From IMG/VR virus record IMGVR_UViG_651703040_000001: a DNA stretch of 64,000 bases; one strand, given 5' to 3'. Every line of letters begins with the position of its first letter. The first letter of the stretch is position 1. The notes under the pieces were generated by a model, which made no database searches, had not been told where the DNA came from, and saw only the letters and a program-made list of their open reading frames with translations. Positions 20,939 through 51,214 of this stretch are shown here, in pieces. Source of the stretch: a virus (taxonomy: Duplodnaviria > Heunggongvirae > Uroviricota > Caudoviricetes > Demerecviridae). The position numbers and the translations under genes are program-made.

Positions 20939-21307
20939 TTACATCGCCTGAGTAAATGTACGACTAATAACGTCGTTCTGTTGTTCACGAGTCAGTGCGT
21001 TAAATCGAACAGCATAGCCAGAGACACGGATAGTCAATTGAGGATATTTTTCAGGATGTTTCTGTGCATCCAAAAGCTGATCACGGCTTAACACATTGAC
21101 ATTTAGGTGCTGACCACCTTCGATTTGAGGGGCGACTTCCACCTTAACTTCACGGAAGGCTTCAGGATCGAATTGTGGTGTAATACCTTCTAGATTTTCA
21201 ACTAGAACTTTCTGTTTAAGTTCACCATTGTCGGAGTATAGCTGAATAATCTGATTTTCATGAACAAGGTTAATTACGCCAGATTTAAGATTTTGATATG
21301 CTTTCAT
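20939..21307 (-). CDS. grcA: autonomous glycyl radical cofactor GrcA/YfiD-like (122 aa)
   Basis: C-terminal [17 protein letters not shown] glycyl-radical motif, as in the PFL C-terminus and GrcA. Confidence 0.75.
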
Positions 21308-29761: not shown

Positions 29762-30751
29762 ATGACAGAAGAAGTAGCTAAGAGTCCTGAGACCGTCGCT
29801 AGCGTTGCAGCAGAACTGCACCGTCACGAGGAATCAGATAAGAAAAAGTGGGAGAAGGTCAGAGCCTACGAAGAGAAACATCGTGAACACGATGAAGATG
29901 ATGAAGAAGATGATGATGAACATTGTCATAAAAATGGAAAACATAAAATGCAAGAACCAGTAAACGTATTCACTAGTGGCTTCCCTGGCCTACTGGGTGG
30001 TTACCCAGCAAACGCAAGTGCTTTCGGTGGTGAAGGTATGGGACTATTCGGAGCTATCCTAATCGGTGCTCTATTAACGGGCGGATTCGGTGGTTTCGGT
30101 GGATTCGGCGGACGTGGTGTAGTTGGTGATGGTACTGCAGTTGATGCAGTACTTCAGAACCAAGATACCGCTAGTATTCTAGCAGCTATTAACACTACTC
30201 GTACAGAAGCTAATCAGGGTACTGGAGCTGTTTTAAGCGCAGTTAACAATGGTTTTAGCCAGACATCCCAAAACCAGAGCCGTGATACTCAGTCTGTACT
30301 AACTACGATCTATGGTACAGGTGCTAATCTGTCTAATCAGATCTGCCAGGAAACTCGCAACGTTATTCAGGGTCAGTTCGATCTTTCTCGCCAGATTGAT
30401 CAATCTTTCGCAGCTAACCAGATAGCTCGTGCACAAGATAAGTTTGATTCTGCACAGATCGCTTTCCAGCAGACTTTACAAACTAATAACCAGTTTGCCG
30501 CTGTTCAGGCTCAGATGTGTGCTAACCAGAACTCTCTGGAACGTCAGATCGCTGAATGTTGCTGTGAACTTCAGACTGCGATCGCGGGTGTAACTACTGC
30601 GCGTATCCAGGATGAGTTAGACGCGTGTCGCCTACGTGAAGCAATCGCTGCGGGTAGCGGTGCTAACGGTCAGGTAATTAATCAAATCGCTTTAAGTCTT
30701 GGTACTATCACTCAGACTCTGGCTGGTCTGCAGGCTAAACTGCCGGCTTAA
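29762..30751 (+). CDS. low-complexity membrane protein (about 330 aa)
   Basis: Strong SD TAGGAGGTG. N-terminal His-rich acidic segment, a glycine-zipper hydrophobic stretch (GFGGFGGFGG), and a Q/N/S/T-rich tail with a CCC cluster. Codons are high-expression-like. Confidence 0.7.
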   Translation: MTEEVAKSPETVASVAAELHRHEESDKKKWEKVRAYEEKHREHDEDDEEDDDEHCHKNGKHKMQEPVNVFTSGFPGLLGGYPANASAFGGEGMGLFGAILIGALLTGGFGGFGGFGGRGVVGDGTAVDAVLQNQDTASILAAINTTRTEANQGTGAVLSAVNNGFSQTSQNQSRDTQSVLTTIYGTGANLSNQICQETRNVIQGQFDLSRQIDQSFAANQIARAQDKFDSAQIAFQQTLQTNNQFAAVQAQMCANQNSLERQIAECCCELQTAIAGVTTARIQDELDACRLREAIAAGSGANGQVINQIALSLGTITQTLAGLQAKLPA

Positions 30752-30772
30752 TATTAAGGGGAGGAGCCCATT

Positions 30773-31192
30773 ATGAGTAAATATGGTTTTGTAAATAACG
30801 GACTTAATCAAAGTATGGGCTCCCAGCAGCCCGTTCCGGGTCTGGATAACCCCTACTTACAACAGTTGCAACAGCGTTTAGCAGAAGCGCAACAGATGCA
30901 GCAACAACTCCAGCAAAACCCTGGAAGTGTGAGTCCTATGCAAATGATGCAGCAAATGAGCGGGCAGTCGCAAATGCCTCAACAAACGCAGCAACAGATG
31001 CCGCAGCAGCAGCAAGTTCAGCAACAAACCCAACAACCGCAGGTTTCTGCGGAAGGACAGGCAGTACTAGCCCTTTTCGAAGACTTCGCAAAGACAGAGG
31101 ATGGGAAGCAGCTTGTATCACTTATGGGTAAGTTTAATAGCTTCTGCCAAAGCCAAATTGCAAAAGCTCAAAATAGTGGTAATAACTCCTAA
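30773..31192 (+). CDS. Gln-rich (prion-like) protein (139 aa)
   Basis: SD GGGGAGGAG. The Q-rich region spans about 60 residues. The C-terminal part looks folded. Confidence 0.65.
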   Translation: MSKYGFVNNGLNQSMGSQQPVPGLDNPYLQQLQQRLAEAQQMQQQLQQNPGSVSPMQMMQQMSGQSQMPQQTQQQMPQQQQVQQQTQQPQVSAEGQAVLALFEDFAKTEDGKQLVSLMGKFNSFCQSQIAKAQNSGNNS

Positions 31193-34089: not shown

Positions 34090-34557
34090 TTAAGTTTTAG
34101 TGACAACAGGTTTATAGAATGTATGTCCCTTAATCTTAGTTGTTTTCTTAAATTTCTTTGTCCAGTAAGGTTTATCTTTACCACTATGGAAGTATAGTGC
34201 TCCATATGTAGGATCTTGTGGTAAATCAACGTAGTATATCACTCTAGCTAAATTCTTAGCGGTTTGCCAAGCCTCATCAGTTTTATCAACTTTTGGTCTC
34301 TTAGATACCCAAGAGAACTGGTTAGACTGATATACTACTTTACAGTAGGAATCTGGGAATTTACCGGAGTTTACACGGTTTTTAGTAACATGTGCAATCG
34401 CCGTCATTCCCTTTATGCCCTCACCACGACTCTCGAAATAGATATTTTTAGCAATGCAATCTATTTCTTTTGCATCGTGCGATGCCTGACTACTAAAGCT
34501 GAAGGTAAGGGCAGCTACTAAAAGCAAAGCTGCCTTCATTCTTTTTACTCCTGCCAA
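34090..34557 (-). CDS. secreted SleB-like cell-wall hydrolase (155 aa)
   Basis: Signal peptide plus an SleB/Hydrolase_2-like domain. Confidence 0.6.
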   Translation of the reverse strand: MAGVKRMKAALLLVAALTFSFSSQASHDAKEIDCIAKNIYFESRGEGIKGMTAIAHVTKNRVNSGKFPDSYCKVVYQSNQFSWVSKRPKVDKTDEAWQTAKNLARVIYYVDLPQDPTYGALYFHSGKDKPYWTKKFKKTTKIKGHTFYKPVVTKT

Positions 34558-34862
34558 TCATATTCAACACGATTGGGATTTTCTTTATACCCTAAGTCAA
34601 GCAAATCATTACGCATATTTTGCTTAGCTACTGGGTTCGAGGTTACTAGTACCACTTTCTTTGGTCTCTGCCCAAATTCTAAGAGTAAACGAAGAATTTG
34701 ATAACCTTCCATACCATCTACAGCCAAGTCATTATCCATATAAACGAAGTGGCCGGTGGTATCAGTTTTATTCAGAAACTCTACAGCGGCTTCTGGGGTT
34801 CGAATGATAATGTCCATTCCGTGAAGATTACGCACATCATCAATCAAAATATGAAAAGTCAT
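34545..34862 (-). CDS. receiver(REC)-like small protein (105 aa)
   Basis: ILIDDV...DNDLAVDGMEGYQIL...VVLVTSN layout, resembling a CheY-like fold. Confidence 0.4.
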   Translation of the reverse strand: MTFHILIDDVRNLHGMDIIIRTPEAAVEFLNKTDTTGHFVYMDNDLAVDGMEGYQILRLLLEFGQRPKKVVLVTSNPVAKQNMRNDLLDLGYKENPNRVEYDWQE

Positions 34863-36248: not shown

Positions 36249-36950
36249 TCAAATTTTCATTTTTTCGATCATAGCTGCAACACAATAGCTTTCAACTAAG
36301 GCATCAAATGCAGGATCATGCTTAACCGGATAGATCCCATAACGAATAGTGTCCATCTTCTCCATTTTAGCTATTGCCCAGCTAATACCTTCGGTCTCTA
36401 GAGCCTTATAACTGTATCCAGCTTGCATCCAGAGATTACGAAGAGATCGAACATTACCCAAATTCCAGAATTTCCACGGAACTACCTCTTCATTGGTTCC
36501 AGCATGGAACGTGTTTGCAGAGTAGATAGTCATATCAAACTCTGGGCCATTGCCATAATACAAAGCATTTTCGCCTAGAGCCAACTCCATAATATTTTGA
36601 GCCATAGAGAAGGCAGCATAGTTAGAGCCGAGTTTATTAGTACAATGATGTTTACCGTTTTGGAAGGCAATCAGTTTTGGATTACGTTCCTTCATAGCTT
36701 CCATAATGTGGATAGCAGACGGGCTATTTTTAGCTTGATCCATCCAGAATGCTAGAGTAGATGCTGTAACTTTGGCACCAGAATTAAGCTGATCCTGCAC
36801 ATCCAAAGTAACAAATACTAGATCAGGGTCTTTATCAATCCCATGCATAGCCACAAAAGCGAAAGAAGGCATTGCGATATGAGTAGTACCACAATCTCCT
36901 GGGGTTCCTAGAGATTCAATATCTAGCATACCAAATGGTTTTACTTTCAT
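36249..36950 (-). CDS. DEDDh 3'-5' exonuclease (DnaQ-like, 233 aa)
   Basis: Exo I motif LDIESLG and Exo III motif HDPAFDA. Confidence 0.7.
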   Translation of the reverse strand: MKVKPFGMLDIESLGTPGDCGTTHIAMPSFAFVAMHGIDKDPDLVFVTLDVQDQLNSGAKVTASTLAFWMDQAKNSPSAIHIMEAMKERNPKLIAFQNGKHHCTNKLGSNYAAFSMAQNIMELALGENALYYGNGPEFDMTIYSANTFHAGTNEEVVPWKFWNLGNVRSLRNLWMQAGYSYKALETEGISWAIAKMEKMDTIRYGIYPVKHDPAFDALVESYCVAAMIEKMKI

Positions 36951-45908: not shown

Positions 45909-46179
45909 TCCTATAGTGTACTTCGCTTCTAACAGAGGATCAATAAAAAGATCTTGTTTATCAACTTACAAATATATTATACCAATATATACAGTAAAAA
46001 GCAACTACAATTTTAAATAAGCCTATGATATTGCATTTAAATAAAAAATTTGCTTGCTTTTAGCATGAGATGTGTGATACTAGATAATCATTTTATATCG
46101 CGTGCACGAGTGCGTGATTATACAATTTTTAATAGAGGTTGGCAAATAAAATTTTTTGACTCAGATCATGTTACAGAAC

Positions 46180-46254
46180 TTTATAGTAAAATATTGTTGA
46201 CATCCGCCCTCGAATGAGTTATAATAGTAGTCTTAGTTAGAGAAGGAGAGTGTA
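46180..46254 (+). promoter_or_regulatory. early promoter for nrdD
   Basis: TTGACATCC...TATAAT...GAGAAGGAGAGTGTA-ATG. Confidence 0.6.
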
Positions 46255-48129: not shown

Positions 48130-48228
48130 GCTAATCAGCCGGGTTGCTAGTCGACCTGGCTTTTATTTTATTTGCTTTCAGCCAAAAATTTATGTATAAT
48201 TGATTTATAAATTTGAGAGGAGAAAGCT

Positions 48229-48510
48229 ATGAGCGAGTTGCTTCCTAAAGTAGATGTCTCCCATCTTGGAGAGCCTAGTGAAGAACGTAAGGCTCTAGAT
48301 TGGTTGGGTGGATTTGATTATCGTCGTGTTGTTGCAACATGGAATGATAAGAAAGTTAAGAAGTTTCGGGTACATTATGTAGGTAAAGACAAGTGGCTCT
48401 GGATTGATTATGAAGAATCGAAGGGGTCTACTAAGGCTGTGAAAATTTATCGTATGTATGGGTATTATTATGCTCACTGTGATAAGAATGAGTTTACAGT
48501 ACAGAACTAA
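48229..48510 (+). CDS. hypothetical protein (93 aa)
   Basis: ORF behind the early promoter at 48170-48228. Confidence 0.5.
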   Translation: MSELLPKVDVSHLGEPSEERKALDWLGGFDYRRVVATWNDKKVKKFRVHYVGKDKWLWIDYEESKGSTKAVKIYRMYGYYYAHCDKNEFTVQN

Positions 48511-48519
48511 GGAACAAGA

Positions 48520-48723
48520 ATGAAAAACGTAAAACATCTTAAATATCGCTTAATTTACAACGGACGTATGGAAACAGAAGACCTGGCCCAGTTAGCTATT
48601 AATTCTAATGAGGTTACAGTGCGTGCGCTGGCAATTGAAAAGTTGCGTGCTTCTTATGAAAATCGTGTTATGGAACTAGAGGAGAAACTTTATGGACTTC
48701 TTGAATCAGAGTCTAAAAAGTAA
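48520..48723 (+). CDS. hypothetical protein (67 aa)
   Basis: ORF. Confidence 0.45.
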   Translation: MKNVKHLKYRLIYNGRMETEDLAQLAINSNEVTVRALAIEKLRASYENRVMELEEKLYGLLESESKK

Positions 48724-48886
48724 TCTAGAAAACATGCTTATTGAGCAATGGAACTCTGGTTATAATGCTGGTGTAGCTAGTTGTATTGCTGGATTGGATA
48801 TGCTTATTAAGCAAGAAAAGGTACGCCCGGAGGAAGCAATTTTACTCCGAAATATTATCGAAGGATTTAAGCGAGGAATCGTATAG
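48692..48886 (+). CDS. hypothetical protein (64 aa)
   Basis: ORF. Confidence 0.4.
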   Translation: MDFLNQSLKSNLENMLIEQWNSGYNAGVASCIAGLDMLIKQEKVRPEEAILLRNIIEGFKRGIV

Positions 48887-49701
48887 TGCGTAGGTTAATT
48901 ATTATTAGCGGTGCAGGTTTGAGTGTTGAAAGTGGTGTACGAGCTTTTCGTACTGATACTGCTAGTGGTAAAGCATTGTGGGATGATTATGATCTAGAAG
49001 AAGTGTGTAATATTCATGCCTTTCGTGGTAATTTTTACCATAAAACCCATATGTTTTACAACAAGCGTCGTGAAGAGCTAAAAACTGTTGAACCCAATCT
49101 TGCGCATTTGCGTATTGGTGAATGGTATAAACAATACCCAGGTCAAGTAGTAAACTTGACTACCAACGTTGATGACCTTATTGAGCGTGCTGGCGTTCCA
49201 CATAGTGACATTCTGCACATTCACGGATATTTAAAAGAGGTTGTTGTAGCTGATAGCTACAATAGTAGCAATAAACGGATTATTGATGTAGGATACAATT
49301 CTATTGACCCAGATGATTATAAATGGGTTAAACCTAATGTAGTCTTCTTTGGGGAGCATGCTCCAGCGTATGCAGAAATGTATAATGTTTTTGATGGTAT
49401 TACTAGTCAAGATATGATCATTGTGGTTGGTTGCTCTAACCAAGTAATTAACTTCTATTGGGAATTATTTCCTGTTCTTAATTTGACTGCTGCGAAACTT
49501 ATGGTTGTTAACTACTATGATAGGGTACTAGCGGCGGAACCGGGCTATCAAGGTATGACTCGTAGTGAGATGTACCAGCTAGAAGAACGTGGTATCCCTT
49601 ACTGGAGTAAAGGTGCAGTAGATGCTTTCAGTGATCCTGATTTTATTGCTCGTGTAGAAGCTCATTTAGAGGGTAGACCTTATGTGTCAGGAAATAAGTA
49701 A
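48886..49701 (+). CDS. Sir2-family protein without a zinc ribbon (271 aa)
   Basis: Motifs GAGLSVESGVRAFR, TTNVDDLIERAG, HIHG, VVFFGE and IVVGCS. No CxxC pairs. Probably a GTG start. Confidence 0.7.
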   Translation: MRRLIIISGAGLSVESGVRAFRTDTASGKALWDDYDLEEVCNIHAFRGNFYHKTHMFYNKRREELKTVEPNLAHLRIGEWYKQYPGQVVNLTTNVDDLIERAGVPHSDILHIHGYLKEVVVADSYNSSNKRIIDVGYNSIDPDDYKWVKPNVVFFGEHAPAYAEMYNVFDGITSQDMIIVVGCSNQVINFYWELFPVLNLTAAKLMVVNYYDRVLAAEPGYQGMTRSEMYQLEERGIPYWSKGAVDAFSDPDFIARVEAHLEGRPYVSGNK

Positions 49702-50194
49702 TACTCCAATTATTTTTCTAGACATTGATGGGGTGCTCAATTCGAGCATCTCCCACCATCATGCACCTGACGATGAAAAGATTTTCTTTGGAAGTGACTG
49801 GGTTTTCAAACCGCTTCTCAAGGCTTTTCAGGACTTTATTCGTCCTTCTCCGATAATGATTGTTGGAGTATCATCTTGGTTCTCTGTCAGAAATGAGATG
49901 GAGAACGTTCGGATTATGACCGGATTAGGTCTTATCGATCGTTTTCTTGGTACAACGGATTTTACTGGTGGTGGATTATCTAGGGGTAATTCTGTTCTTC
50001 GCTTCGTTGAAAAGCATAAGCTCAAACATTGGTGTGTGCTTGATGATGCGGGTGCTATGATGTATCAGTATCCAACGGTTATAGTCAACGGTAGGACTGG
50101 GATAAATCTTCAAGATTTAAAAGCTGTTAGCTATATGCTAGAATTTAGTCCAGATCTTGAAATGTGTAAAGCCCTACAGCAATTTAAGGTGTAA
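49682..50194 (+). CDS. HAD-superfamily phosphatase-like protein (170 aa)
   Basis: N-terminal IIFLDIDGVLNSS (the DxDGT/V motif I). Overlaps the Sir2 stop. Confidence 0.55.
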   Translation: MCQEISNTPIIFLDIDGVLNSSISHHHAPDDEKIFFGSDWVFKPLLKAFQDFIRPSPIMIVGVSSWFSVRNEMENVRIMTGLGLIDRFLGTTDFTGGGLSRGNSVLRFVEKHKLKHWCVLDDAGAMMYQYPTVIVNGRTGINLQDLKAVSYMLEFSPDLEMCKALQQFKV

Positions 50195-50196
50195 AT

Positions 50197-50625
50197 ATGT
50201 TCAATAATGTATTCTCTAAAGAAGCTAACCCAATTTTGGTTAACTTTTGGCGTACTCTCCCAGCTAGCCTGTATAATGAGGCTATTAACTCTTTGAAAAT
50301 ATGGTGTGAGAATAACGAAATCTCCTTTGCTTTTAAAGATGATATTGATGAGGCCCCCTGTATTGGTTTAATTGTTCAGGTAGAGGAGGGTCTTGAAGAG
50401 ATTGTGGGCTGGAAAGAGTTAGATGAAATGGGCTTAGTTTTTGCTTTAAATTATAAACTGTTTATGCCTGCTAAGCATCGCCTCGTTGTTAACTATAAAA
50501 CTAGTGAATCTCCGGGTTTTCAGGTTAATGAACGTTATGGTTGGTCTTACTCACCGGAAGAAGTAAATGAGGGGATTCAGAAACTTCGACGTTTCGGGTA
50601 TATGATCCCAGGTTTAACTGCTTAA
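50197..50625 (+). CDS. hypothetical protein, paralog A (142 aa)
   Basis: Shares the D(D/E)PCIG...W.ELDEMGL..ALN...IPGL blocks with the next ORF. Confidence 0.55.
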   Translation: MFNNVFSKEANPILVNFWRTLPASLYNEAINSLKIWCENNEISFAFKDDIDEAPCIGLIVQVEEGLEEIVGWKELDEMGLVFALNYKLFMPAKHRLVVNYKTSESPGFQVNERYGWSYSPEEVNEGIQKLRRFGYMIPGLTA

Positions 50626-50634
50626 GGAGGCAGA

Positions 50635-51027
50635 ATGGAACAAGTATATTGGCGTCAGATTGACCCTAGCTTGGTGAAGCGTGCGGAAAAGCTGCTACAA
50701 CGTTGGTTGGGGGTAAGGCAAGCCTCCTTCACTTTTCCAGAGCAGCAAATAGATGACCCCTGCATTGGTGTTTTCCTGTCTGGATATGCTAGGGAATGGG
50801 AGATGGACTGGAATGAATTGTCAGCTATGGGTTTAATTATTGCCCTAAACTTCTCTATATTCCATCCACGTGGTTTGGCCATATGTCGTGTGCTAGATGA
50901 CGGTTGTTCGCCCCATCTTTTACAGGTGGAAGATGATATTTGGGAGTACACTCCAGATATTCTCGCAGAAGCTAAAGAACAATTAAATCGTGTTGGGATT
51001 TATATTCCGGGATTAAGTGATGAATAA
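50635..51027 (+). CDS. hypothetical protein, paralog B (130 aa)
   Basis: Tandem paralog. SD GGAGG. Confidence 0.55.
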   Translation: MEQVYWRQIDPSLVKRAEKLLQRWLGVRQASFTFPEQQIDDPCIGVFLSGYAREWEMDWNELSAMGLIIALNFSIFHPRGLAICRVLDDGCSPHLLQVEDDIWEYTPDILAEAKEQLNRVGIYIPGLSDE

Positions 51028-51214
51028 GGAATTTTGGAAAATAAAAGGTAAGATTTCTAAGTGGAATACTACCGGGAAAATTAGTAAGTCTCTAGAGATA
51101 GAGATAGCTAGAATGTTTACTGATCCTGATTTTGATATAGGAAAACTAAGTAAAGTAGATGCTAAAAAAGTAGATAAGTATATAGAAGAGATTAGAAGTA
51201 TTTTAAGTGTCTAA
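51017..51214 (+). CDS. hypothetical protein (65 aa)
   Basis: ORF. Terminator at 51232-51256. Confidence 0.45.
   Translation: MMNKEFWKIKGKISKWNTTGKISKSLEIEIARMFTDPDFDIGKLSKVDAKKVDKYIEEIRSILSV

What the first reader, a model, noticed from the sequence alone, without database searches (positions are those of the whole stretch)
48886..50194. Zn-ribbon-less Sir2 protein translationally coupled to a HAD phosphatase
All core Sir2 NAD-binding and catalytic motifs are present (GAGxS, TxNxDxL, catalytic His in HIHG, VVFFGE), but the Cys4 zinc module is absent. This is the architecture seen in NAD-cleaving or ADP-ribosylating Sir2 variants rather than in classical deacetylases. The next gene overlaps its stop and encodes a DxDG(V) HAD phosphatase. 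Together they could form an NAD/ADP-ribose-processing pair, acting either in host takeover by ADP-ribosylation or in countering NAD-depletion immunity.
Basis: partly seen in the sequence, partly recalled or inferred. Interest (0 to 1): 0.7.

Follow-up and report, generated by a model that had tools for sequence, protein, structure and literature searches.

The report
T5-family phage sirtuin with HAD phosphatase
This is the already-annotated Sir2-like gene of the T5-like Salmonella phage SPC35 and its neighbouring HAD phosphatase; the missing zinc cysteines and the pairing with the phosphatase have both been published, but nobody has yet measured what the pair does.

Summary
The window is Salmonella phage SPC35, a Tequintavirus (100% identity). 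ORF 48886-49701 is a real sirtuin (Pfam SIR2, E=2.5e-25) with an intact NAD and catalytic site and no Cys4. ORF 49682-50194 is a HAD_SAK_2 phosphatase whose start lies 20 nt inside the sirtuin's 3' end.

The ribbon module is kept at full length; only its cysteines are gone, and more distant relatives still carry CxxC...IGY...CxxC. The nearest sequences and folds are the deacylases CobB, Sir2Af and SIRT5. No defence-type Sir2 model matches. The class III Y-x-x-R motif is conserved. The direct overlap occurs in only 4 of 29 related loci.

Both points are already in print. Skliros 2016 reported the zinc loss and names SPC35. Iyer et al. 2022 described the sirtuin plus 'Swiss-army-knife' HAD neighbourhood in T5-like phages and predicted Tpt1/KptA-like RNA 2'-phosphate removal.

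I confirmed their contexts: rV5 has Rnl1-cREC-Sir2, and a jumbo phage has Sir2 followed by Nudix-cREC. I add two things. SPC35 has an unlinked cREC gene. A HAD_SAK_2 homologue heads a NARP1-like NAD+ rebuilding operon in a phage that has no sirtuin.

The function remains untested. Verdict: already known, moderate interest.

The parts
48886..49701 (+). Sirtuin (Sir2-like) gene, SPC35_0094, 271 aa, GTG start that shares its G with the TAG stop of the upstream gene
   Evidence: Pfam SIR2 E=2.5e-25. phrog_2162 E=2e-121. Best PDB match is CobB 1s5p. AF2 model pLDDT 89.4.
48873..48877 (+). GAGGA Shine-Dalgarno, 8 nt upstream of the sirtuin GTG
   Evidence: Read directly from the sequence.
49057..49068 (+). 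Codons for Y58-N-K-R61, the class III sirtuin Y-x-x-R pair (equivalent to CobB Y92/R95)
   Evidence: Aligned to FYNARR of CobB. Invariant in alignment A1. Present in 118 of 120 clade members.
49222..49224 (+). Codon for the catalytic His113 (HIHG)
   Evidence: Aligned with the catalytic His of CobB (MHG). Invariant in A1.
49228..49329 (+). The 34-residue segment that replaces the Zn ribbon (residues 115-148). It has no Cys and carries the clade motif D-V-G-Y...I-D-P-D-D-Y-x-W-V-K.
   Evidence: Modelled as beta strands 114-122 and 131-134, leading into strand 147-152.
49669..49673 (+). GAGGG Shine-Dalgarno for the HAD gene, lying inside the sirtuin's 3' end
   Evidence: Read directly from the sequence.
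49682..49701 (+). The 20-nt overlap between the sirtuin's 3' end and the HAD 5' end
   Evidence: Found in only 4 of 29 related loci.
49682..50194 (+). HAD_SAK_2 phosphatase gene, SPC35_0095, 170 aa, a capless HAD
49721..49735 (+). HAD motif I, D14-I-D16-G-V
50197..50625 (+). First of two tandem DUF7415 paralogues. They are kept next to the sirtuin module in Demerecviridae, including those that lack the HAD gene.
   Evidence: Pfam DUF7415 E=5e-36. Co-occurrence shown.
50635..51027 (+). Second DUF7415 paralogue
   Evidence: Pfam DUF7415 E=9e-30. Co-occurrence shown.
48229..48886 (+). Three small upstream ORFs (93, 67 and 64 aa) in the same tightly packed gene string. Function unknown.
   Evidence: PHROGs of unknown function. 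Conserved in T5-like loci.
34545..34862 (-). Unlinked cREC gene (cyclic-phosphate-processing receiver domain), SPC35_0074. The same domain sits next to the sirtuin in rV5-like and jumbo phages.
   Evidence: Pfam cREC_REC E=3.8e-15, 56.8 bits against a cut-off of 27. Local HMM hit.

Best explanation
The pair belongs to a phage-specific, CobB-like (class III-like) sirtuin clade whose members are linked to phosphoesterases.

The most likely mechanism is the one predicted by Iyer, Burroughs, Anantharaman and Aravind (2022). The sirtuin uses NAD+ to transfer ADP-ribose onto an anionic oxygen nucleophile and releases nicotinamide. The proposed nucleophile is a 2'-phosphate left at a healed or cleaved RNA (tRNA) end. 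The ADP-ribose 2''-OH, activated through His113, then resolves the adduct. This is chemically parallel both to Tpt1/KptA and to sirtuin deacylation. The capless HAD_SAK_2 phosphatase then removes a phosphate monoester, either from the RNA end or from the ADP-ribose-phosphate by-product (ADPR-1''P, or opened Appr>p).

Shown here: both enzymes have intact, strongly conserved active sites; the genes are linked; and the contexts recur. Inferred: the substrate, the direction of the chemistry and the biological role.
For: 1. The active site is under purifying selection across about 978 phage genomes. GAGxS..FR, TTNVDD, H113-G114, KPxVxFFxE, GxS and N209 are invariant.
2. The anion-binding Y58/R61 pair is kept in 118 of 120 members.
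3. The peptide-binding side departs from canonical sirtuins. The Zn ligands are lost, there is a clade-specific DVGY...DPDDYxW module, and the conserved V-x-P proline aligns with N189.
4. In rV5 the operon is RNA ligase 1 -> cREC -> Sir2 -> MazG, with a P-loop kinase and a metallophosphoesterase divergently adjacent and tRNA genes 4 kb away.
5. In jumbo phage fHe-Yen9-04 the sirtuin is followed directly by a Nudt16-like Nudix-cREC fusion.
6. In Demerecviridae the sirtuin is linked to HAD_SAK_2 in two different gene orders.
7. SPC35 also carries a cREC gene beside its tRNA cluster.
8. HAD_SAK_2 occurs elsewhere next to RlaP, Macro, cREC and R2K genes.
9. The HAD is capless, like HADs that act on macromolecular or bulky substrates.
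10. There is a published prediction for exactly this neighbourhood (PMC9503650).
Against: - No experiment exists for any member of this clade; none was found.
- SPC35 and T5 lack a detectable RNA ligase and polynucleotide kinase, so there is no complete phage-encoded healing-and-sealing pathway. The known bacterial RtcB route and the T4 Pnkp/Rnl1 route produce no 2'-phosphate (general knowledge).
- The function assigned to cREC is itself only a prediction.
- The closest characterised relatives are protein deacylases.
- In ChuuTotoro a HAD_SAK_2 homologue works without any sirtuin, next to NARP1-like genes.
- Most cREC loci and most HAD_SAK_2 loci have no sirtuin nearby.
Confidence: 0.38

Rival explanations
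1. The sirtuin is a conventional NAD+-dependent protein lysine deacylase (deacetylase, or desuccinylase/demalonylase). It acts on host or phage proteins, for example re-activating acetyl-CoA synthetase or resetting the acyl-lysine state during infection. The HAD is a functionally separate phosphatase that merely lies nearby.
For: The best sequence and structure matches are CobB, Sir2Af1/2 and SIRT5. The catalytic His, the FGE motif and the class III Y-x-x-R pair that recognises acidic acyl groups are conserved. Skliros et al. 2016 argued for this function in the KVP40-type homologue and list T5 and SPC35 as carriers.
Against: Scores fall far below the NCBIfam CobB cut-offs (100.7 vs 243 bits; 90.1 vs 320 bits). 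The Zn ligands and the V-x-P proline are lost, and a new conserved module replaces them. The hosts already encode CobB (general knowledge). The repeated linkage to phosphoesterases, cREC and RNA ligase, kept in two gene orders, is not expected for a protein deacylase. No acyltransferase partner is present: the gene labelled 'acetyltransferase-related' is in fact a glycyl-radical protein.
Confidence: 0.27
2. The pair is a small-molecule NAD+/ADP-ribose metabolite module for counter-defence. On this reading the HAD dephosphorylates a phosphorylated ADP-ribose or NAD derivative (ADPR-1''P made by RES-type defences, 2'-phospho-ADPR, or NADP). That would make it a non-homologous analogue of the macro-domain Adpp in NARP1-AP. 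The sirtuin would make or consume such a metabolite and would not act on RNA or protein.
For: HAD_SAK_2 homologues at 37-41% identity overlap the start of an Adps-like plus Namat-like (NARP1-type) operon in Serratia phage ChuuTotoro and Acinetobacter phage ABPH49. ChuuTotoro has no sirtuin, Rnl1 or cREC. More distant HADs lie near Nampt-like, NMNAT-like or Prs-like genes (L113, L126). NARP1 genes lie 2-4 kb from the cREC, Rnl1, kinase and Sir2 cluster in Vequintavirinae, and NARP2-type genes lie 2.5-5 kb from the jumbo-phage sirtuin. There is a precedent for a phosphatase extending NARP1 (bioRxiv 10.64898/2026.01.28.702374).
Against: SPC35 has no Adps or Namat. No NadR- or PnuC-type gene appeared in its annotation, and two unannotated candidate ORFs gave no Pfam hit. 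A net NAD+-consuming enzyme would be costly for a phage whose DNA ligase is NAD-dependent. The sirtuin does not resemble defence NADases. The published NARP1 phosphatase is a macro domain, and that paper does not mention a HAD. In L105 the HAD sits beside a weak Macro-domain match just below the Pfam cut-off, which argues against simple replacement. The HAD is capless.
Confidence: 0.2
3. The sirtuin is a macromolecular ADP-ribosyltransferase or an NADase used for host takeover.
For: Sirtuins can ADP-ribosylate (general knowledge; reviewed in PMC9503650). The gene string lies downstream of a consensus sigma-70 promoter at 46197-46225, alongside nucleotide-metabolism and replication genes.
Against: There is no macro-domain partner, unlike SirTM systems: no Macro hit in any neighbour scanned. 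No similarity to defence or toxin sirtuins was found. The catalytic His and the deacylase-type pocket are conserved. The phage depends on NAD+ for its own ligase.
Confidence: 0.07

Closest known systems
Phage 'RNA-repair' sirtuin clade of Iyer, Burroughs, Anantharaman and Aravind 2022 (Viruses 14:1977), neighbourhood type 3 (sirtuin plus Swiss-army-knife-like HAD, typified by Escherichia phage SP15)
   Same: Same gene pair in the same phage family. The SPC35 sirtuin is 55.7% identical to the rV5 sirtuin, which sits in an Rnl1-cREC-Sir2 operon. The HAD is Pfam HAD_SAK_2.
   Different: No real difference; this is a member of that clade. Additions made here: Cys4 was lost secondarily inside a wider CxxC...IGY...CxxC clade; T5-like phages also carry an unlinked cREC gene; the direct overlap is a minority, derived state.
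E. coli/Salmonella CobB and human SIRT5 (class III sirtuin deacylases)
   Same: Best sequence match (phmmer E=1.4e-17; clade profile E=5e-29) and best fold match (Foldseek E=1e-17, TM 0.71-0.84). They share GAGxS, the N and D of the Q/T-N-[IV]-D motif, the catalytic His, the FGE motif and the Y-x-x-R pair.
   Different: No Zn-binding cysteines. TTNVDD replaces TQNID. The V-x-P proline aligns with Asn. There is a clade-specific DVGY...DPDDYxW module. Scores are far below the NCBIfam equivalog cut-offs. The clade is confined to phages and linked to phosphoesterases.
Tpt1/KptA RNA 2'-phosphotransferase followed by Poa1p/Adpp ADPR-1''P phosphatase
   Same: This is the proposed way of working: NAD+-dependent removal of a phosphate through an ADP-ribosyl adduct, followed by clean-up of an ADP-ribose phosphate. 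The context of RNA ligase, kinase and cyclic-phosphate enzymes in rV5 parallels the yeast Trl1-Tpt1-Cpd1-Poa1 pathway.
   Different: The folds are unrelated: sirtuin Rossmann fold versus ART fold, and HAD versus macro domain. No activity has been shown. T5-like phages lack the ligase and the kinase.
Defence-associated Sir2 NADases (ThsA, DSR1/2, Sir2-HerA, SPARSA) and macro-linked SirTM ADP-ribosyltransferases
   Same: Sir2 superfamily and NAD+ as substrate.
   Different: No PADLOC model matches. None appears among the top 50 fold matches. There is no sensor, HerA, Argonaute or macro partner. The canonical small-domain ribbon and the deacylase pocket motifs are retained.
KVP40/phiSt2 vibriophage Sir2/CobB (Skliros et al. 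2016)
   Same: Same clade (35% identity, E=1e-38). Same reported loss of the zinc ligand. That paper names T5 and SPC35 as carriers.
   Different: The vibriophage gene has no adjacent HAD_SAK_2. Its authors favoured protein deacetylation of Acs.

Membership tests
Sir2/sirtuin superfamily (PF02146) | Profile match above the curated threshold | tested here: met
   89.9 bits against a cut-off of 24, E=2.5e-25, covering profile positions 1-178 of 180.
Sir2/sirtuin superfamily (PF02146) | NAD-binding GAGxS...FR loop, the N and D of the Q/T-N-x-D motif, and the catalytic His in HG | tested here: met
   G9AGLS13, F21R22, N94, D96 and H113G114 are invariant across 32 diverse clade members and align with CobB.
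Sir2/sirtuin superfamily (PF02146) | NAD+-dependent catalysis | not testable with these tools
   Needs an enzyme assay.
CobB-type / class III protein deacylase | Match to the curated equivalog or subfamily models at their cut-offs | tested here: not met
   NF001753: 100.7 bits against 243. NF040867 (CobB): 90.1 bits against 320.
CobB-type / class III protein deacylase | Y-x-x-R pair that binds acidic acyl groups | tested here: met
   Y58 and R61 align with FYNARR of CobB. Present in 118 of 120 members.
CobB-type / class III protein deacylase | Cys-ligated Zn ribbon in the small domain | tested here: not met
   No Cys among residues 115-148. Zero or one Cys in this segment in 83 of the 86 clade members where the segment could be delimited, and never four. 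The ribbon's length and strands are retained.
CobB-type / class III protein deacylase | Conserved V-x-P substrate-staple loop after GxS | tested here: not met
   The profile alignment places N189 opposite the Pro of CobB (HVYP) and of Sir2Af2 (VVYP).
Defence-type Sir2 NADases (ThsA, DSR, Sir2-HerA, SPARSA) | Match to defence-system Sir2 models, or a sensor/partner gene | tested here: not met
   No PADLOC family at E<=0.01. The neighbours are HAD, DUF7415 and small ORFs.
SirTM (macro-linked ADP-ribosylating sirtuins) | Adjacent macro-domain gene | tested here: not met
   No Macro hit in any of the eight neighbouring ORFs scanned.
Phage RNA-repair-associated sirtuin clade (Iyer et al. 2022) | Membership of the phage-specific clade that includes the rV5 and jumbo-phage sirtuins | tested here: met
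   50-66% identity to sirtuins of Vequintavirinae and Mydovirus phages. The shared clade motifs are TTNVDD and DVGY...DPDDY.
Phage RNA-repair-associated sirtuin clade (Iyer et al. 2022) | Conserved neighbourhood with a SAK-like HAD (type 3) | tested here: met
   HAD_SAK_2 lies immediately downstream. The pair is present in 29 of 32 Demerecviridae loci sampled, in two gene orders.
Phage RNA-repair-associated sirtuin clade (Iyer et al. 2022) | Removal of RNA 2'-phosphate | not testable with these tools
   A prediction only; no experimental paper was found.
HAD superfamily, HAD_SAK_2 (PF18143) | Profile match above threshold and the four HAD catalytic motifs | tested here: met
   73 bits against 27.5. 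D14, D16, S64, R101 and D121 are invariant and D122 is nearly invariant. HAD Rossmannoid fold with no cap.
NARP1-AP (Adps, Namat and the Adpp phosphatase) | Adps and Namat genes in the genome; a macro-domain phosphatase | tested here: not met
   No Adps or Namat hit in SPC35 by tblastn. The phosphatase here is a HAD, not a Macro domain. The association with NARP1 is seen only for homologues in ChuuTotoro and ABPH49.
Tpt1/KptA | ART-fold PTS_2-RNA domain | tested here: not met
   The protein is a Rossmann-fold sirtuin, and its only Pfam hit is SIR2. Any resemblance would be functional, not homology.

The most novel reading that the evidence does not exclude
HAD_SAK_2 may be an ADP-ribose-phosphate phosphatase, acting on ADPR-1''P, on opened ADPR-1'',2''-cyclic phosphate, or on 2'-phospho-ADPR. 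That would make it a non-homologous counterpart of the macro-domain enzymes Poa1p and Adpp. In T5-like phages it would clear the by-product of a Tpt1-like, phosphate-directed sirtuin. In ChuuTotoro-like phages it would feed ADPR into NARP1 and so extend NAD+ reconstitution to defences that leave phosphorylated ADPR. This reading would tie the 'RNA-repair' gene sets and the NAD+ rebuilding operons of large phages into one ADPR-recycling network.
Probability: 0.15. Interest if true: 0.7.

Novelty: already known. Interest (0 to 1): 0.33.

Why it matters
About 2% of sequenced phage genomes carry this sirtuin (978 of 50,697 records), among them the model phages T5, rV5 and KVP40. Its activity has never been measured.

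If it removes RNA 2'-phosphates, it would be a second, independently evolved solution to the Tpt1 reaction, and the first sirtuin known to act on a nucleic acid. If the HAD handles ADP-ribose phosphates, it would add a component to the NAD+-centred arms race between phages and bacteria. If it is simply a deacylase, it would show phages editing host protein acylation.

For this window specifically, though, nothing goes beyond what has already been published.

Tried and rejected
1. Defence-type Sir2. PADLOC gave no hit, so I rejected this.
2. Informative domain fusions among more distant sirtuin relatives. I found only WG-repeat, LRR or unannotated extensions, which say nothing about function.
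3. PDB sequence homologues. None for the HAD at E<=1, and none meaningful for DUF7415.
4. RNA ligase, kinase, Adps or Namat in SPC35. None found by phmmer or tblastn. A cREC gene was found only with a profile.
5. A test of whether KptA and the sirtuin are mutually exclusive around cREC genes. No KptA was detected near any of the 65 cREC loci. The test is inconclusive.
6. Whether SPC35 carries NARP3 (NadR-like plus PnuC-like). The two candidate ORFs at 29762-31192 have no Pfam hit and match only PHROGs of unknown function. No evidence for NARP3.
7. The 'acetyltransferase-related' gene as a possible partner for a deacetylase. It is a glycyl-radical (GrcA-like) protein.
8. The Phapecoctavirus-like sirtuin neighbourhood (type B). 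Its neighbours are DUFs or have no hit.
9. Literature searches for any experimental work on a phage sirtuin. None found.
Full report
**What the window is.** The 2.9 kb around the finding is 100% identical to Salmonella phage SPC35 (NC_015269 / HQ406778), a Tequintavirus (T5-like, Demerecviridae). A further 448 phage records match it. Window coordinate = record coordinate minus 6437. The two genes are SPC35_0094 and SPC35_0095. They lie in a tightly packed plus-strand string (48229-51214) between nrdD and the replication-origin-binding helicase. A perfect sigma-70 consensus (TTGACA-17-TATAAT) at 46197-46225 precedes nrdD. A terminator-like hairpin at 48137-48161 follows it.

**Checking the observation.**
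- ORF 48886-49701 (GTG start, 271 aa) matches Pfam SIR2 at E=2.5e-25.
- It has two cysteines, C41 and C183, and none in the zinc-module position.
- ORF 49682-50194 (170 aa) matches Pfam HAD_SAK_2, 'HAD domain in Swiss Army Knife RNA repair proteins', at E=4.2e-20.
- In an alignment of 27-29 homologues its four HAD motifs are conserved: D14 and D16, S64, R101 and D121 are invariant, and D122 is nearly so.
- Its ATG lies 20 nt inside the sirtuin's 3' end, behind a GAGGG Shine-Dalgarno.

**Two corrections to the observation.**

First, the zinc module is not absent. The segment between HG and KPNVVFFGE is 34 residues, the same length as in E. coli CobB. AlphaFold models it confidently as beta strands. 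Across the clade it carries a conserved motif, D-[VI]-G-Y...[IV]-D-P-D-D-[YF]-x-W-[VC]-K. A profile search of 1.84 billion representative proteins shows that more distant relatives keep CxxC...IGY...CxxC. The four ligands were thus lost secondarily inside a wider clade.

Second, the direct overlap is a minority state. Only 4 of 29 Demerecviridae loci have it. T5 itself and 24 others have one or two ORFs of about 60 aa between the two genes.

**What the sirtuin resembles.**
- Its best solved relatives by sequence are E. coli CobB (E=1.4e-17 for the single sequence; 5e-29 for the clade profile), then Sir2Af1/2 and SIRT5.
- By fold the order is the same: Foldseek E=1e-17, TM 0.71-0.84 to CobB. 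No defence sirtuin appears in the top 50.
- No PADLOC defence model matches.
- It is not a CobB equivalog. NCBIfam scores are 100.7 against a cut-off of 243 and 90.1 against 320.
- Y58 and R61 align with CobB Y92 and R95, the class III pair that binds acidic acyl groups. They are present in 118 of 120 clade members.
- The departures from the canonical pattern are TTNVDD in place of TQNID, an invariant C41 where CobB has A76, and N189 opposite the conserved proline of the V-x-P substrate loop.

The catalytic machinery is therefore intact and the NAD side is canonical, while the acceptor-binding side has been remodelled.

**Distribution and context.**

The clade is confined to phages in my searches. 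It gave 195 protein clusters at E<1e-5 and 978 of 50,697 phage records. It occurs in Demerecviridae, Vequintavirinae, Mydovirus, 7-11-like phages, KVP40-like phages and jumbo phages.

Within Demerecviridae:
- The order is sirtuin -> HAD_SAK_2 -> two DUF7415 paralogues in Tequintavirus and Epseptimavirus-like phages.
- The order is reversed (HAD -> 116-118 aa ORF -> sirtuin) in Erwinia phage KEY and in a metagenomic relative.
- Three Demerecviridae loci lack the HAD, among them the Klebsiella-phage-type loci L053 and L054.

Outside Demerecviridae:
- In rV5 the operon is RNA ligase 1 -> cREC -> sirtuin -> MazG. A P-loop kinase and a metallophosphoesterase are divergently adjacent, and tRNA genes lie 4 kb away.
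- In the jumbo Yersinia phage fHe-Yen9-04 the sirtuin is followed by a Nudt16-like Nudix-cREC fusion. NMNAT and Nampt genes lie 2.5-5 kb upstream.

These are the three neighbourhood types described by Iyer et al. 2022 (PMC9503650, section 3.7.3). [quoted passage not shown] They proposed that the sirtuin acts like KptA/Tpt1 to remove RNA 2'-phosphates, with the phosphoesterases opening cyclic phosphates or processing ADPR>P.

The loss of the zinc ligand was reported earlier by Skliros et al. 2016 (PMC5107563) for the KVP40-type protein. That paper names T5 and SPC35 as carriers and favoured protein deacetylation of Acs. I found no experimental study of any member.

**What I can add.**
1. SPC35 has a previously unlabelled cREC gene at 34545-34862 (minus strand, SPC35_0074; 56.8 bits, E=3.8e-15) beside its tRNA cluster. 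All three sirtuin-bearing lineages I examined therefore carry cREC.
2. SPC35 has no detectable RNA ligase, polynucleotide kinase, Adps or Namat. It cannot encode a complete healing-and-sealing pathway.
3. HAD_SAK_2 homologues (37-41% identical) in the Vequintavirinae phage ChuuTotoro and in Acinetobacter phage ABPH49 overlap the start of a Prs-like (Adps-type) plus NAPRTase-family (Namat-type) operon, the NARP1 arrangement. ChuuTotoro has no sirtuin, Rnl1 or cREC.
4. More distant HAD_SAK_2 genes sit near Nampt-like, NMNAT-like or Prs-like genes (L113, L126), or in a cluster with RlaP, a weak sub-threshold Macro match, HAD, cREC and R2K (L105).
5. In other Vequintavirinae the NARP1 genes lie 2-4 kb from the metallophosphoesterase, Rnl1, cREC, kinase (and sirtuin) cluster.
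7. A recent preprint shows that a macro-domain phosphatase (Adpp, a Poa1p homologue) extends NARP1 by converting ADPR-1''P to ADPR. It does not mention a HAD.

**Weighing the explanations.**

The repeated and varied linkage of this sirtuin clade to phosphoesterases, cREC, an RNA ligase and a kinase favours a phosphate-directed, Tpt1-like ADP-ribosyl transfer, with the HAD clearing a phosphate monoester. So do the remodelled acceptor side and the conserved anion-binding pair. My confidence is about 0.38.

A conventional deacylase remains a serious rival, at about 0.27, because every characterised relative is one and the pocket motifs are conserved.

A purely small-molecule NAD/ADPR counter-defence role, at about 0.20, gains from the HAD-NARP1 adjacency. 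It is weakened by the lack of NARP genes in SPC35 and by the phage's own NAD-dependent ligase.

Host-takeover ADP-ribosylation or NADase activity is the least supported, at about 0.07.

**Verdict.** The finding is already known as a computational prediction, and the gene has been annotated as Sir2-like since the T5 and SPC35 genomes were published. Interest is moderate, because the biochemical question is open and directly testable, but this window adds little that is new.

Noticed in passing
window 49682-50194 (SPC35_0095): RefSeq labels the HAD phosphatase gene 'Sir2 (NAD-dependent deacetylase)'. The label traces to phrog_18062, a 92-residue PHROG annotated as Sir2 that actually matches the C-terminal half of the HAD protein (E=4.5e-58). 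The mislabel is repeated in many T5-like RefSeq records, where 'Sir2 (x2)' appears.
   Followed up: yes
window 34545-34862 (-), SPC35_0074: This 'hypothetical protein' is a cREC (cyclic-phosphate-processing receiver) domain protein (Pfam 56.8 bits, E=3.8e-15). It lies beside the tRNA gene cluster. An Rv2179c-like 3'-5' exoribonuclease gene is nearby at 36249-36950 (-).
   Followed up: partly
L063/L074 (Serratia phage ChuuTotoro ON287369, 35888-39104) and L064 (Acinetobacter phage ABPH49): A HAD_SAK_2 gene overlaps the start of a Prs-like (Adps-type) plus NAPRTase-family (Namat-type) NARP1-like operon, in a phage that has no sirtuin. The papers I read do not mention this. It may be a HAD counterpart of the macro-domain NARP1-associated phosphatase.
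   Followed up: partly
window 50197-50625 and 50635-51027: Two tandem paralogous DUF7415 genes, each with two DUF7415 stretches, follow the HAD gene after 2 nt. They stay next to the sirtuin even in Demerecviridae that lack the HAD. There is no structural or functional lead. One GenBank record calls them 'exonuclease' and 'tail tube protein', which looks spurious.
   Followed up: partly
window 20939-21307 (-), SPC35_0054: Annotated as 'putative acetyltransferase-related protein', but it is a glycyl-radical domain protein (Pfam Gly_radical, E=3e-18). It is probably a GrcA/YfiD-like spare part for glycyl-radical enzymes such as the phage NrdD.
   Followed up: partly
window 29762-31192 (+): Two plus-strand ORFs (329 and 139 aa) lie in an otherwise minus-strand region rich in tRNA genes. 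They coincide with a local GC peak (0.46 against about 0.39). They have no Pfam hit and match only PHROGs of unknown function. This may be an acquired cassette.
   Followed up: partly
window 46117-46225: There are divergent, near-perfect sigma-70 promoters: 12/12 at 46197-46225 (+) upstream of nrdD, and 11/12 at 46145-46117 (-). They sit exactly where the cumulative GC skew reaches its minimum and the coding strand switches.
   Followed up: no
L145-L147, L150, L151, L153 (Vequintavirinae and related IMG/VR contigs): NARP1 genes (Adps, Namat) lie 2-4 kb from, and divergent to, the metallophosphoesterase-Rnl1-cREC-kinase cluster that has been read as RNA repair. This hints at a shared anti-defence or NAD-related island.
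   Followed up: no
L002-L024 (T5-like loci), between the sirtuin and HAD genes: One or two ORFs of about 60 aa fill a gap of 155-459 nt in most T5-like phages, T5 included. They are cleanly absent in the SPC35 subgroup, and their absence is what creates the direct overlap. Their function is unknown.
   Followed up: partly
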